Virus record (IMG/VR): IMGVR_UViG_2713896779_000012
DNA from: a virus
Lineage: Duplodnaviria; Heunggongvirae; Uroviricota; Caudoviricetes
Direction: 5' to 3' (one strand)
Length of the DNA stretch: 8,863 nucleotides
A model generated the notes under the pieces. It was not told the DNA's origin, did no database searches, and saw only the letters and a list, made by a program, of their open reading frames with translations. A program made the translations under genes and the position numbers. Shown here piece by piece: positions 531-2,699 of the stretch. Numbering within the stretch: the stretch's first letter is position 1; every line of letters starts with the position of its first letter.

Positions 531-1250
531 TCAGCGACCAATCACCACAACCTGACCACCGTCCCCTTCGTCTGCCGTGCTGATCTCCTGAGAAACCACG
601 CGTGACCCCACGCGCATTTCCCCGTACAGAACAGGCAGAACATTGCCCTGGGCAACCATGTTATCCAGTGAGGAGAAATAGGTGTTCTGCTTACCGTTAT
701 CCGTTGTCTGTGTACGGGGAGTTCTGGCTTTCGGTGCCAGCATCTGCGCCACACCACCGAGCACCATACTGGCACCGAGAGAAAACAGGATGCCGGTCAT
801 ACCACCGGCCCCAATGGCTGCCCCCCATGCTGCAAGGGTGGCTCCGGCGGTAAAGAATGATCCGGCAATGGCGGCAGCCCCCAGGACAATCTGGAATACG
901 CCACCTGACTTGGCCCCGGCGACTCTGGGAACAATATGAATCACAGCGCCATCAGGCAGAGTCTCATGTAACTGCGCCGTTAACCCGGACGTGCTGACGT
1001 CCCGCCCGGCAATCCGTACCTGATACCAGCCGTCGCTCAGTTTCTGACGAAACGCCGGGAGCTGTGTGGCCAGTGCCCGGATGGCTTCAGCCCCCGTTTT
1101 CACACGAAGGTCGATGCGGCGACCAAATCGTTGTAAATCCCCGTAAAGGCAGATGCGCGCCATGCCCGGTGACGCCAGAGGGAGTGTGTGCGTCGCNNNN
1201 NNNNNNNNNNNNNNNNNNNNNNNNNNNNNNNNNNNNNNNNNNNNNNCCAT
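531..1250 (-). CDS. I: Tail tip assembly protein I (interrupted near its 5' end by a 50-N scaffold gap at 1197-1246)
   Basis: ORF translation ATHTLPLASPGMARICLYGDLQRFGRRIDL...GGQVVVIGR matches lambda gpI as I recall it. An ATG at 1248-1250 lies just upstream of the gap and is in frame with the post-gap ORF for any true gap length of 3n+2. Stop TGA at 531-533. Overlaps the K 3' end in another frame. Confidence 0.85.
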   Translation of the reverse strand: MXXXXXXXXXXXXXXXXXATHTLPLASPGMARICLYGDLQRFGRRIDLRVKTGAEAIRALATQLPAFRQKLSDGWYQVRIAGRDVSTSGLTAQLHETLPDGAVIHIVPRVAGAKSGGVFQIVLGAAAIAGSFFTAGATLAAWGAAIGAGGMTGILFSLGASMVLGGVAQMLAPKARTPRTQTTDNGKQNTYFSSLDNMVAQGNVLPVLYGEMRVGSRVVSQEISTADEGDGGQVVVIGR

Positions 1251-1891
1251 TTGTCGGTGTACCTCTCTCGTTTGCTCAGTTGTTCAGGAATATGGTGCAG
1301 CAGCTCGCCGTCGCCGCAGTAAATTGCGGCGTGATTCGGCACCGATGAACCAAAACAGCACAGCAGCACATCGCCCGGCTGTGCCGCTGACAACGGCACC
1401 TGATACAGCCCCGTCGCCTCCAGATTATCCAGATAGAGATTCTGGCCGTTACGCCACCAGTCATCCTCACGATGAAAGTCCGGCATCTCAATCCCCGCCA
1501 GATGATAAGCATCCCGGAACAGTGTGTAACAGTCCGTCACACCGTGCTCAAAGCGCCGCCCGGTGAGATGCGGCACACAGCGGAACTTATGAATCGTCCC
1601 CCGGCAGACCAGCCACCACGGCAAATCACTCTGCACCTGCAGCCGCCGGTCGGCCTCACTCAGCCAGGGCAGACCACCGGGGTGGCTGTGGACCAGCGCC
1701 ACAATCTCACCCTGCATTTCTGCCTGCAGCCAGTCTTCCGGCGACATACGGAAATACGCCTCCGGCTCACCGGAGATATTCACGCAGGGGAAATATCTTT
1801 CCCCCTCCGGCGTGCTTACCACGAAGCCGCACGACTCCGCTGGCGCACATCGCCGGGCGTGCGCCAGAATCGCTGATTCTGTCTGTGTCAT
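1100..1891 (-). CDS. K: Tail tip assembly protein K, with JAB/MPN (JAMM-motif) and NlpC/P60-like domains; interrupted near its 3' end by the same 50-N gap
   Basis: ORF MTQTESAILAHARRCAPAESCGFVV...HSHPGGLPWLSEAD...GVTDCYTLFRDAY...ERYTDKW [gap] RRTHSLWRHRAWRASAFTGIYNDLVAASTFV. HSHPGGLPWLSEAD fits the JAMM consensus HxHx7Sx2D. ATG at 1889-1891 is 5 nt after the L stop. The 3' end overlaps the I start. An internal ATG at 1745-1747 (MSPEDW...) is an alternative start. Confidence 0.85.
   Translation of the reverse strand: MTQTESAILAHARRCAPAESCGFVVSTPEGERYFPCVNISGEPEAYFRMSPEDWLQAEMQGEIVALVHSHPGGLPWLSEADRRLQVQSDLPWWLVCRGTIHKFRCVPHLTGRRFEHGVTDCYTLFRDAYHLAGIEMPDFHREDDWWRNGQNLYLDNLEATGLYQVPLSAAQPGDVLLCCFGSSVPNHAAIYCGDGELLHHIPEQLSKRERYTDKWXXXXXXXXXXXXXXXXXRRTHSLWRHRAWRASAFTGIYNDLVAASTFV
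1197..1246. other. Assembly/scaffold gap (50 N) inside the K/I overlap
   Basis: Run of exactly 50 N. Both the K and I reading frames resume in frame after it, consistent with a true gap length of 3n+2 (possibly only 2 nt). Confidence 0.95.
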
Positions 1892-1896
1892 GGGAT

Positions 1897-2699
1897 TTAC
1901 TGCGAAAGTTTGTTAATGGAAAGGAAGCCGCCAAAGTTGCCGACGTTATTGCGGAACTTACAACCGCTCAGGCATTTGCTGCATTTATCCTTCGTGATAT
2001 CGGACGTTGGCTGGTCATATTCATCCGCGACAGCCGGACCGCTATAACCGCACTCGTCACCGCGATAGGTCCAGGTGCAGGTGTTGGCCAGCATGATACG
2101 TCCCGGAAAAACAGCGCCGTCCGTTTCCGTCGGCGTGGACAGTACAAAAGAGGCACTCACCGCGCTCAGTTCGCTGCACTGCTCGATGCGCCAGCGNCTG
2201 ATCACCTCCTGCTCCGGATCGGCGTCNCTGTTTCCGTTGACGAAGTTCACCGCATCCAGAAAACGGGCGTAAACCTTACGCCGGACCACCGTTCCGCCGA
2301 CCAGACTCTGCATATCTTCCACCATCCCGGTGACCATGCCGTACAGGTTAGAGACTGCCAGCGTGGGCCGCGTACTGGTGCCTTTGCCATTCAGTTCAAA
2401 ACCACTCCCCTGAATGGGATACGGCTGATACTGTCTCCCCTGCCAGGTGACCGGCTCACCTTTTTCGTTCTGCTCATTACAGAAAAAATAACGTTCTCNN
2501 NNNNNNNNNNNNNNNNNNNNNNNNNNNNNNNNNNNNNNNNNNNNNNNNAGGTGACCGGCTCACCTTTTTCGTTCTGCTCATTACAGAAAAAATAACGTTC
2601 TCCACCGACCTCTGTCAGATCGATTTCCCAGAGCACCACGCTGGCTGACTGCTCCGCACGGGTGCATTCATTCAGTGTTTCCTGCCGGATATCCTGCAT
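1897..2699 (-). CDS. L: Tail tip protein L (apparently intact; split in the ORF track by a 50-N gap plus 54-bp duplicated contig overlap)
   Basis: N-terminal part (2549-2699) reads MQDIRQETLNECTRAEQSASVVLWEIDLTEVGGERYFFCNEQNEKGEPVT. Sequence below 2498 continues WQGRQYQPYPIQGSGFELNG...MVTGMVEDMQ...FLSINKLSQ*. Removing the 104-nt artifact (one repeat copy plus the gap) leaves 699 nt, i.e. 232 codons plus stop. ATG at 2697-2699 overlaps the M stop (ATGA). Stop TAA at 1897-1899. Single N at 2197 and 2227. Confidence 0.9.
2445..2602. repeat. Assembly artifact: 54-bp perfect direct repeat (2445-2498 and 2549-2602) flanking a 50-N gap (2499-2548); unmerged overlapping contig ends
   Basis: aggtgaccggctcacctttttcgttctgctcattacagaaaaaataacgttctc occurs identically on both sides of the N run, and the post-gap copy starts immediately at the gap edge. 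Collapsing it restores a single in-frame L gene. Confidence 0.9.

What the first reader, a model, noticed from the sequence alone, without database searches (positions are those of the whole stretch)
1100..1891. K carries JAB/MPN and NlpC/P60-like motifs; the upstream ATG includes the E-x-C-G motif
HSHPGGLPWLSEAD (about 1640-1690) fits the JAMM metalloprotease consensus. ESCGFVV (about 1826-1837) resembles the conserved Glu-containing first motif of JAB domains. A Cys-containing segment GVTDCYTLF (Cys codon about 1529-1531) and downstream His residues fit an NlpC/P60-type hydrolase. Starting at the internal ATG 1745-1747 would remove the E-x-C-G motif, so the full-length start at 1891 (5 nt after the L stop) looks more likely, although it has no obvious Shine-Dalgarno sequence.
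Basis: partly seen in the sequence, partly recalled or inferred. Interest (0 to 1): 0.45.

Follow-up and report, generated by a model that had tools for sequence, protein, structure and literature searches.

The report
Lambda tail gene K, full-length form
This is phage lambda's tail-assembly gene K, which encodes a 247-residue protein with two protease-like domains; this make-up is already published, and the shorter 199-residue version in the reference lambda record comes from one missing G in that sequence.

Summary
One correction: the ORF looks like 263 codons only because a 50-N gap (1197-1246) stands in for two real bases; the true protein is 247 aa. Pfam finds a complete Prok-JAB domain (52.3 bits, residues 3-104) and a complete NlpC/P60 domain (49.2 bits, 111-224). 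The 199-aa form from the internal ATG keeps only the second half of JAB and falls below Pfam's cut-off. The long start (ATG 1891, 5 nt after the L stop) is supported by conservation and purifying selection on codons 2-48, by non-conservation of Met49, and by a pLDDT-97 model in which residues 1-48 are core JAB elements. The 199-aa annotation (J02459, NC_001416, Swiss-Prot TIPK_LAMBD) arises because the reference lacks one G (window 1757), which breaks the long frame; every independent lambda sequence examined has it. The JAB + NlpC/P60 architecture was published in 2003-2006 and the 247-aa form is common in prophage annotation, so this is known biology plus a reference-annotation flaw. K's substrate remains unknown; removal of gpI's ubiquitin-like domain is the best-supported guess.

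The parts
1100..1891 (-). Gene K coding sequence (tail tip assembly protein K). True length 744 nt / 247 aa; the window shows 792 nt because of the N run.
   Evidence: ORF and translation; identical to PhiR30_1 K once the N run is replaced by 'CA'; phrog_30 minor tail protein E=1.3e-163
1889..1891 (-). Favoured start codon ATG, 5 nt after the L stop codon and without a Shine-Dalgarno sequence (translational coupling inferred)
   Evidence: the same start position in relatives down to 48-58% identity, mostly -1 to +11 nt from the L stop
1897..1899 (-). Stop codon (TAA) of gene L
   Evidence: annotation of lambda records
1580..1885 (-). JAB/MPN+ (JAMM) metalloprotease-like domain, residues 3-104. 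Motif residues: Glu19 (1837..1835), His68 (1690..1688), His70 (1684..1682), Ser78 (1660..1658), Asp81 (1651..1649).
   Evidence: Pfam PF14464 52.3 bits, profile 3-112 of 114; fold match to P. furiosus JAMM1 5ld9/5lda, rmsd 2.5-2.7 A; H68, H70, D81 invariant and E19, S78 at least 90% conserved in 83 representatives
1172..1561 (-). NlpC/P60 (C40) papain-like peptidase domain, residues 111-224, interrupted in the window by the N run. Cys121 (1531..1529), His187 (1333..1331), His199 (1297..1295).
   Evidence: Pfam PF00877 49.2 bits, profile 1-105 of 105; fold matches to MepS 8xud/8xup and C. difficile Acd33800 9ubf; H199 invariant, C121 and H187 at least 90% conserved
1745..1747 (-). Internal ATG (Met49), the start of the 199-aa form annotated in the reference lambda records
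   Evidence: replaced by Ile or Leu in diverged homologues
1759..1763 (-). GGAGG Shine-Dalgarno-like sequence, 11 nt upstream of the internal ATG; it lies inside codons for the conserved residues Glu42-Pro43-Glu44
   Evidence: anti-SD duplex -9.5 kcal/mol; annotated as a ribosome binding site in OM418625
1757..1757 (-). The G that is absent from J02459/NC_001416 (after reference position 14266). Its presence joins the upstream ATG in frame with the rest of K.
   Evidence: alignment A1; frame consequences; allele counts
1197..1246 (.). Assembly gap of 50 N that replaces two bases ('CA' on the K strand). It adds 16 false codons to K and sits right after the annotated ATG of gene I.
531..1250 (-). 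Gene I (ubiquitin-like beta-grasp domain, Gly-rich linker, C-terminal plug domain), K's predicted partner or substrate. It overlaps the 3' end of K in another frame.
   Evidence: alignment of I homologues; Iyer et al. 2006

Best explanation
Window 1100-1891 (minus strand) is bacteriophage lambda gene K. It encodes a 247-residue (28.3 kDa) protein with two domains: an N-terminal JAB/MPN+ (JAMM) zinc-metalloprotease-like domain (residues 3-104) and a C-terminal NlpC/P60 cysteine-peptidase-like domain (111-224). Translation starts at the ATG at 1891, 5 nt after the stop of gene L. This site has no Shine-Dalgarno sequence, so initiation is probably by coupling to L translation (inferred). The 199-residue K in the reference lambda records is an annotation artefact: the reference sequence lacks one G (window 1757), which puts the upstream ATG out of frame.

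Shown here: the gene's identity, the two domains, intact and conserved catalytic motifs, the conserved long reading frame, and the origin of the short annotation.

Inferred: how K works. K is needed for tail-tip assembly but is not found in virions, so it most likely acts as an assembly-time protease on the J-I-L initiator complex. The best-supported substrate is gpI. In this reading the JAB domain, whose closest solved relative removes a ubiquitin-like protein, cuts gpI's N-terminal ubiquitin-like domain off at its conserved Gly-rich end (Gly96 to Gly101). That leaves the C-terminal plug seen in the tail tip. The substrate of the NlpC/P60 domain is unknown. The confidence given below is for the gene model and domain architecture; I put the gpI-cleavage mechanism at about 0.35.
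For: Identity: 99.8-100% DNA identity to lambda and lambda hybrids, with L-K-I synteny.

Domains: Pfam Prok-JAB 52.3 bits and NLPC_P60 49.2 bits, both covering the whole profile. The AlphaFold2 model has mean pLDDT 97.1 and pTM 0.91. Foldseek matches JAMM1 5ld9/5lda, AMSH and Rpn11 for the N-terminal half, and MepS and Acd33800 for the C-terminal half.

Catalytic residues: in 83 cluster representatives at 34-58% identity, H68, H70, D81 and H199 are invariant, and E19, S78, C121 and H187 are at least 90% conserved.

Long start:
- The 199-aa form scores only 23.3 bits for JAB, below the cut-off of 25, and covers profile positions 63-112 only.
- Residues 1-48 form helix 3-15 and strands 21-26 and 31-36 of the fold.
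- Fifteen residues within 8-47 are invariant among 18 homologues at 67-96% identity.
- In 80 unique 744-nt alleles, variable sites in codons 2-48 fall 10/7/28 by codon position, with pN/pS 0.23.
- Met49 is Ile or Leu in diverged relatives, whose 241-244-aa ORFs start at the same N-terminus next to the L stop.
- Distant relatives (228-271 aa) align from about query residue 4-10.

Reference flaw: J02459 lacks the G, and its upstream ORF runs out of frame just before the internal ATG. Only J02459, NC_001416, OR974322 (which keeps the reference's coordinates and annotation) and OR474059 (flagged UNVERIFIED) lack it among 60 listed phage records. Among fetched loci, 76 carry the G and 3 lack it, and the carriers include more than 12 low-coverage lambda contaminant contigs assembled de novo in unrelated genome projects.

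Mechanism:
- K is absent from virion mass spectrometry and from all cryo-EM maps.
- gpI is modelled only from residue 101 or 134-135 onward.
- The single gpI peptide in virion MS (9.87% coverage) can only be the C-terminal tryptic peptide 202-223.
- The Gly-rich end of gpI's beta-grasp domain is conserved down to 43% identity.
- The K-I link was predicted by Iyer et al. 2006.
Against: - There is no direct evidence for K's N-terminus (no proteomics or start-site profiling found).
- The long start has no Shine-Dalgarno pairing (+0.7 kcal/mol), whereas the internal ATG has a strong one (-9.5 kcal/mol, top 5% of windows), though at a long 11-nt spacing. Thousands of automatic gene calls choose the 199-aa form.
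- I could not show that the stock sequenced in 1982 really carried the G.
- On the mechanism: an unresolved gpI N-terminus may simply be flexible rather than removed, and one MS peptide is very weak evidence. The yeast two-hybrid map found no K interaction with tail proteins. I infer, but the paper does not state, that the K clone followed the 199-aa annotation.
- No enzymatic activity of K has been reported in the papers read.
Confidence: 0.88

Rival explanations
1. The internal ATG (1747) is a genuine start, either alone or alongside the long start. It would give a 199-residue, 23-kDa product that is essentially an NlpC/P60 peptidase with a non-functional JAB remnant.
For: There is a strong GGAGG upstream (-9.5 kcal/mol). 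It is the annotated start in J02459, NC_001416, DE3 and OM418625, the last with an annotated RBS, and in Swiss-Prot TIPK_LAMBD. Large clusters of 199-aa gene calls exist. Iyer et al. mention phages whose K has only the NlpC/P60 domain.
Against: The product would lack Glu19 and the first helix and two strands of the JAB fold. Met49 is not conserved. The GGAGG lies in codons for the conserved Glu-Pro-Glu, so coding constraint can explain its conservation. The 11-nt spacing is longer than the usual optimum (established knowledge). The reference annotation had no alternative because its long frame is broken.
Confidence: 0.12
2. The G-less reference allele is real, not an error. The sequenced lambda stock would then have made only the short K and still been viable, so the JAB N-terminus would be dispensable or vestigial in lambda.
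For: J02459 was determined from real phage DNA. Four database records lack the G.
Against: NC_001416 is a copy of J02459. OR974322 keeps the reference's coordinates and annotation. OR474059 is flagged UNVERIFIED and is an engineered strain. Every other lambda or lambda-hybrid record listed, and more than 12 contaminant assemblies of laboratory lambda, carry the G. The JAMM residues are invariant or nearly so across the family, and codons 2-48 are under purifying selection.
Confidence: 0.04
3. K's NlpC/P60 domain is the phage's cell-wall-cutting enzyme, used at infection to open the peptidoglycan for DNA entry.
For: The closest folds are peptidoglycan endopeptidases (MepS, C. difficile Acd33800, CD630_03720), and there are weak NCBIfam hits to phage cell-wall peptidase and RipB/RipC models. 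One structural paper notes that lambda's peptidoglycan-cleaving enzyme is unidentified.
Against: K was not detected in virions by mass spectrometry and is not resolved in any map. The Ur-lambda paper states that lambda virions contain no peptidoglycan hydrolase. All NCBIfam peptidoglycan-hydrolase hits are far below their cut-offs.
Confidence: 0.08
4. K is a catalytically inert scaffold or chaperone that merely uses protease-like folds to bind gpI, gpJ or gpL during tip assembly.
For: No activity has been reported. K's function is described as unknown in the 2023-2026 papers read.
Against: Both active sites are intact and conserved down to 34% identity. Inactive MPN or NlpC/P60 domains generally lose these residues (established knowledge of MPN- domains).
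Confidence: 0.1

Closest known systems
Lambda tail assembly protein K (TAPK) as described by Ambroggio et al. 2003 and Iyer, Burroughs & Aravind 2006
   Same: It is the same gene. JAB plus NlpC/P60 architecture, position between L and I, and the predicted functional link to the ubiquitin-like gpI.
   Different: Nothing biological differs. The window carries the G that the reference record lacks, so it encodes the full 247-aa protein rather than the 199-aa entry (AAA96551) that the 2003 paper lists.
Archaeal minimal JAMM proteases that remove ubiquitin-like SAMPs (Pyrococcus furiosus JAMM1, PDB 5ld9/5lda; 'desampylase' NF041370)
   Same: A single compact JAB domain with an E...HxHx7SxxD motif. 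It is the best structural match (rmsd 2.5-2.7 A over about 108 columns, 23-26% identity), and there is a weak desampylase HMM hit at E=4.7e-07. The partner protein has a beta-grasp domain ending in Gly.
   Different: K scores 29.8 bits against a cut-off of 130 for the desampylase model, so it is not a member of that equivalog. K is fused to a second peptidase domain. Its presumed substrate is a linear fusion (a domain of gpI) rather than an isopeptide conjugate. No activity has been shown.
NlpC/P60 peptidoglycan DL-endopeptidases (E. coli MepS/Spr, C. difficile Acd33800)
   Same: Papain-like fold with a Cys-His-His triad; structural matches with TM 0.55-0.68 normalised to the target; Pfam PF00877.
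   Different: K appears to lack a signal peptide or lipobox (read from the sequence, not tested with a predictor), is made in the cytoplasm during late phage development, and is not in virions. A peptidoglycan substrate is therefore doubtful.
F-type pyocin assembly gene PA0639 / pyoF8
   Same: Described as the gpK counterpart in a lambda-like tail gene cluster, and likewise absent from the mature particle by cryo-EM and proteomics.
   Different: It belongs to a bacteriocin, not a phage. I did not compare the sequences here.

Membership tests
JAB/MPN+ (JAMM) metalloproteases, Pfam PF14464 Prok-JAB | Significant match to the family HMM over the whole domain | tested here: met
   52.3 bits against a cut-off of 25, profile positions 3-112 of 114, residues 3-104. 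The 199-aa form fails: 23.3 bits, half the profile.
JAB/MPN+ (JAMM) metalloproteases, Pfam PF14464 Prok-JAB | JAMM motif E-x(n)-H-x-H-x7-S-x-x-D | tested here: met
   Glu19, His68, His70, Ser78, Asp81 with exact spacing; conserved in 83 representatives
JAB/MPN+ (JAMM) metalloproteases, Pfam PF14464 Prok-JAB | MPN fold | tested here: met
   Predicted model (pLDDT 97) matches JAMM1, AMSH, Rpn11 and CSN5 structures. This is a prediction, not an experimental structure.
JAB/MPN+ (JAMM) metalloproteases, Pfam PF14464 Prok-JAB | Zinc binding and (iso)peptidase activity | not testable with these tools
   Needs biochemistry
NlpC/P60 (MEROPS C40) peptidases, Pfam PF00877 | Significant match to the family HMM over the whole domain | tested here: met
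   49.2 bits against a cut-off of 23, profile positions 1-105 of 105, residues 111-224
NlpC/P60 (MEROPS C40) peptidases, Pfam PF00877 | Catalytic Cys at the start of a helix, plus His and a third polar residue | tested here: met
   Cys121 opens helix 121-131 and His187 lies in strand 187-193. His199 is invariant; Cys121 and His187 are at least 90% conserved.
NlpC/P60 (MEROPS C40) peptidases, Pfam PF00877 | Hydrolytic activity and substrate (peptidoglycan stem peptide or other) | not testable with these tools
   Needs biochemistry. The specific NCBIfam peptidoglycan-hydrolase models are all far below their cut-offs.
Lambda-type tail tip assembly protein K | Near-identity to lambda K and position between genes L and I in a lambdoid tail cluster | tested here: met
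   99.8-100% DNA identity and L-K-I order; phrog_30 E=1.3e-163
Lambda-type tail tip assembly protein K | Required for tail assembly but absent from virions | not tested
   Taken from the literature only
Desampylase equivalog (NCBIfam NF041370) | Score above the equivalog cut-off | tested here: not met
   29.8 bits against a cut-off of 130: a relative, not a member

The most novel reading that the evidence does not exclude
K could be the missing maturation protease of the lambda tail, working like a deubiquitinase. In this reading its JAB domain clips the ubiquitin-like domain off gpI at the Gly-rich junction (about residues 96-101), so that only the plug fragment stays in the tip. [quoted passage not shown] Experiments that used the 199-residue clone from the reference annotation would have missed this, because that protein lacks the catalytic Glu and about 40% of the JAB fold.
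Probability: 0.3. Interest if true: 0.6.

Novelty: already known. Interest (0 to 1): 0.25.

Why it matters
The biology is not new. K's two protease-like domains have been in the literature since 2003-2006, and the 247-residue form is common in prophage annotation.

The practical point is that the most-used lambda references (J02459, NC_001416, Swiss-Prot TIPK_LAMBD) still give a truncated K, because one G is missing from the sequence. Some records that carry the G copied the short annotation anyway. A clone, antibody, interaction screen or structure prediction built from the 199-residue entry uses a protein without its catalytic glutamate or the first part of its JAB fold.

K is also one of the last lambda virion-assembly proteins with no known mechanism. 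Papers from 2023 to 2026 still call its role or location unknown. Two unexplained processing events sit next to it in the pathway: the unseen N-terminal domain of gpI, and the cleavage of gpH. Using the correct full-length protein is the first requirement for testing whether K carries them out.

Tried and rejected
- **Documentation of the missing G.** Three literature searches found nothing in the held library. From memory only, a commercial supplier's lambda sequence notes list a '+G at 14266' difference from J02459; I could not verify this here.
- **Papers not held.** The Casjens & Hendrix 2015 review and the Liu et al. 2013 lambda ribosome-profiling paper could not be read, so I have no published start-site evidence.
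I used P0006 (98% identical) instead.
- **A solved structure of K.** None exists by sequence search; the best hit is an uncharacterised JAB protein, 2kks, at E=1.3e-05.
- **Modelling K docked to gpI** through natural K-I fusion entries. I dropped this because the structure tool returns no coordinates or inter-domain error, so an interface could not be assessed, and the fusions are probably frameshift artefacts.
- **Confirming the window's source contig** through P0287 returned a different, 560-nt contig.
- **L-stop to K-start distances** of 164, 500 and 703 nt for three loci are probably artefacts of my simple L-stop finder. I did not use them.
- **Programmed frameshifting** as an explanation for the reference frame break. 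I rejected it because all other lambda sequences simply have the extra base.
Full report
**What the region is.** The window is phage lambda DNA with the tail genes on the minus strand: Z, U, V, G/T, H, M, L, K, I and the first part of J. The 851 bases around the finding are 99.8-100% identical to lambda, lambda hybrids, DE3, HK629/HK630 and similar phages, and lie over the genes annotated L, K and I (annotations). The finding is therefore lambda gene K.

**Checking the observation.**
- ATG at 1891..1889, 5 nt (ATCCC) after the L stop TAA at 1899..1897
- internal ATG at 1747..1745
- ESCGFVV at 1837..1817
- HSHPGGLPWLSEAD at 1690..1649, an exact H-x-H-x7-S-x-x-D
- GVTDCYTLF with its Cys codon at 1531..1529
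- stop TGA at 1102..1100

One correction is needed. The ORF is listed as 263 codons but contains a run of 50 N (1197-1246). Comparison with an uninterrupted record shows that the run replaces just the two bases 'CA'. With these restored the gene is 744 nt / 247 aa and identical to K of phage PhiR30_1. The window looks like a gapped scaffold: another 50-N run (2499-2548) is flanked by an exact 54-nt duplication.

The 247-aa protein matches Pfam Prok-JAB (PF14464) at E=6.1e-14, 52.3 bits (cut-off 25), over residues 3-104 and profile positions 3-112 of 114. It matches NLPC_P60 (PF00877) at E=5.7e-13, 49.2 bits (cut-off 23), over residues 111-224 and the entire profile. The 199-aa form that starts at the internal ATG keeps NLPC_P60, but its JAB match drops to 23.3 bits. 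That is below the cut-off and covers only profile positions 63-112. NCBIfam gives only sub-threshold hits (desampylase 29.8 against 130 bits; phage NlpC family 23.9 against 81.9). PHROGs places the protein in phrog_30, minor tail protein, at E=1.3e-163.

**Why the reference says 199 residues.** The same query spans 803 bases in most records but 802 in J02459/NC_001416. The alignment shows that the reference lacks one G, GGAGGC-TATTTCC against GGAGGCGTATTTCC. This is window position 1757, after reference position 14266, ten bases before the internal ATG. In J02459 the ORF from the ATG after the L stop therefore runs out of frame just before Met49, and K was annotated from 14276 as 199 aa.

Among 60 listed phage records only four lack the G:
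- J02459
- its RefSeq copy NC_001416
- OR974322, from cloacal swabs, with coordinates and annotation identical to the reference
- OR474059, flagged UNVERIFIED, an engineered strain

All other lambda, lambda imm21/imm434, DE3, HK629/630 and LC730321 (48,503 bp) records listed carry it. Among all loci fetched, 76 carry the exact G-containing string and three lack it. The carriers include more than a dozen low-coverage contigs in genome assemblies of unrelated bacteria (Neobacillus, Pseudoxanthomonas, Chromatium, Enterococcus, Bradyrhizobium and others) that encode K 100% identical over residues 1-247. I read these as laboratory lambda DNA assembled de novo as a contaminant, which makes them independent re-sequencings. 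The simplest reading is an omission in the 1982 sequence; a private mutation of the sequenced stock is not formally excluded.

The short annotation has spread. DE3 and lambda imm21 carry the G yet annotate K from the internal ATG. The exact 199-aa sequence is AAA96551.1, and its UniRef entry is named TIPK_LAMBD. The exact 247-aa sequence is on at least 1000 contigs under names such as 'C40 family peptidase' and 'Predicted metal-dependent protease of the PAD1/JAB1 superfamily'.

**Evidence that the long form is the real protein.**
1. *Conservation.* Eighteen homologues at 67-96% identity from Escherichia, Shigella, Salmonella, Citrobacter and Edwardsiella are 242-249 aa. Within the first 48 residues they share invariant I8, L9, H11, A12, A16, P17, E19, S20, C21, G22, V24, Y33, N38, S40 and F47.
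2. *The internal Met is not conserved.* It is Ile or Leu in several E. coli and Salmonella homologues. It is Ile in the 48-58% identical relatives from Budvicia, Chania, Limnobaculum and Enterobacteriaceae B14, whose 241-244-aa ORFs begin at the same N-terminus.
3. *Codon-level selection.* Among 80 unique 744-nt alleles, variable sites in codons 2-48 fall 10/7/28 by codon position, with pN/pS 0.23. The rest of the gene gives 46/29/111 and 0.13.
4. *Distant relatives.* An exhaustive search found 2753 cluster representatives at E<=0.001. The 35-50% identical ones are 228-271 aa and align from about query residue 4-10.
5. *Structure.* An AlphaFold2 model built on 83 representatives has mean pLDDT 97.1 and pTM 0.91. 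Residues 1-48 form helix 3-15 and strands 21-26 and 31-36, which are core parts of the domain.
6. *Start geometry.* In most relatives the K start lies -1 to +11 nt from the L stop, and some have a visible Shine-Dalgarno sequence there.

Against this, the lambda long start has no anti-SD pairing (+0.7 kcal/mol). The internal ATG has GGAGG (-9.5 kcal/mol, top 5% of windows) at a long 11-nt spacing. That GGAGG lies in codons for the conserved Glu-Pro-Glu, so its conservation does not need a ribosome-binding role. I conclude that the long start is the functional one, probably reached by coupling to L translation (inferred). A minor internal product cannot be excluded without protein data.

**Active sites.** In the 83-sequence alignment (34-58% identity to the query) H68, H70, D81 and H199 are invariant, and E19, S78, C121 and H187 are at least 90% conserved. 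This is the complete JAMM motif plus an NlpC/P60 Cys-His-His triad. In the model Cys121 opens helix 121-131 and His187 lies in strand 187-193. Both domains therefore look catalytically competent; activity itself cannot be tested here.

**Fold comparison.** No solved structure of K exists by sequence search; the best hit is the uncharacterised JAB protein 2kks at E=1.3e-05, with an alignment that starts at K residue 7 and includes the Glu-x-Cys-Gly. By fold, the N-terminal half is closest to Pyrococcus furiosus JAMM1 (5ld9, and 5lda in complex with the ubiquitin-like SAMP2), with rmsd 2.5-2.7 A over about 108 columns. AMSH, Rpn11 and CSN5 follow. The C-terminal half matches the peptidoglycan endopeptidase MepS and the C. 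difficile autolysin Acd33800.

**What is already known.** Ambroggio et al. 2003 list lambda tail assembly protein K among JAMM proteins of unknown function, citing the 199-aa entry AAA96551. Iyer, Burroughs and Aravind 2006 describe K as JAB plus NlpC/P60. They note its conserved position next to gene I, whose product has a ubiquitin-like beta-grasp domain ending in a conserved Gly. They also predict that K processes gpI, with JAB releasing the ubiquitin-like domain.

K's function, however, is still open:
- K was not detected in virions by mass spectrometry, and those authors speculated that it is non-structural.
- Its F-pyocin counterparts are likewise absent from mature particles.
- The two-hybrid map found no K interaction with other tail proteins.

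**Most likely mechanism (inferred).** K acts during tip assembly, in the order J, I, L, K or J, I, K, L, and then leaves. The gpI link fits several later observations:
- gpI is modelled only from residue 101 or 134-135 onward, just after the Gly100-Gly101 that follows the beta-grasp domain.
- The single gpI peptide in virion MS, at 9.87% coverage, can only be the C-terminal tryptic peptide 202-223, the one 22-residue peptide in the protein.
- The 'HI(V/I)P(R/H)xxGA-K-x-(G/A)-G' end of the domain is conserved down to 43% identity.

All of this is also compatible with a flexible, unresolved N-terminal domain, so I rate this mechanism at about 0.35.

A peptidoglycan-cutting role at infection is unlikely for lambda, because K is not in virions and lambda virions are reported to have no peptidoglycan hydrolase. 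The same paper states that it is unknown how gpH is cleaved to gpH* and gpHC in its Gly-rich region. K is an obvious untested candidate, and I list this as the novel case.

**Verdict.** The finding is ordinary in the sense that it rediscovers a published architecture of a well-known gene. The useful extra is that the reference lambda records carry a truncated K because of a single missing base, and that the truncated form lacks the catalytic Glu and the first part of the JAB fold.

Noticed in passing
window 1197-1246, 2499-2548, 2806-2855; single N at 459, 473, 477, 488, 2197, 2227: The window is a gapped scaffold. Three 50-N placeholders are present: the first replaces only two bases, and the second is flanked by an exact 54-nt duplication, which looks like an unmerged contig overlap inside gene L. 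ORF lengths read across these runs (K 263 aa, plus the L and M fragments) are artefacts. I did not examine the third run.
   Followed up: partly
window 1248-1250 and 1161-1163 (minus strand); loci L121, L123, L124, L125: The start of gene I is ambiguous. The lambda annotation uses the ATG at 1250 (223 aa, overlapping K by 103 nt). In the most diverged relatives the I frame has a stop or no Met there, and the conserved start corresponds to lambda Met14 (MARICLYGDL, ATG at 1163..1161). The PhiR30_1 record uses a third start, at the K stop, giving 190 aa; that start lies well inside the ubiquitin-like domain.
   Followed up: partly
loci L087-L099, L105, L107, L112, L113, L117, L118, L122, L126-L128, L132, L133: Many species-representative 'genomes' of unrelated bacteria (Neobacillus, Pseudoxanthomonas, Chromatium, Enterococcus, Paenibacillus, Shewanella, Bradyrhizobium, Streptomyces-like and others) contain contigs encoding 98-100% lambda K, many with about 1x coverage in the contig name. 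This is almost certainly laboratory lambda DNA contamination in public assemblies.
   Followed up: no
L005 (NC_042057 DE3), L003 (OM418625 lambda imm21): Records that carry the extra G, and so have an intact 247-codon frame, still annotate K from the internal ATG at 199 aa. The annotation was apparently copied from the reference ('similar to lambdap19').
   Followed up: yes
proteins P0015, P0016, P0020, P0031, P0035, P0042, P0078: Database entries fuse K to L (PF05100) or to I (PF06805) in single ORFs of 311-428 aa. They may be frameshift or assembly artefacts at the tightly packed or overlapping L/K and K/I junctions, or the rare natural fusions that Iyer et al. mention. I did not examine them.
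   Followed up: no
cluster 2 member P0287 (KPO91295.1): A partial 167-aa K (Met49 to Trp215 would be 167 residues, ending exactly at the N run) is recorded on an E. coli contig of 8863 bases, which is the window's length. This is probably the window's source record, with K called from the internal ATG. A look-up returned a different, 560-nt contig, so this is unconfirmed.
   Followed up: partly
loci L031, L036, L043, L051, L076, L084, L109-L111: In some lambdoid prophages the K reading frame stays open upstream of the conserved ATG, so ORFs run to 264-323 aa from the first ATG and automatic callers could over-extend K. The conserved 'MT(Q/E)TES' start is still present in all of them.
   Followed up: no
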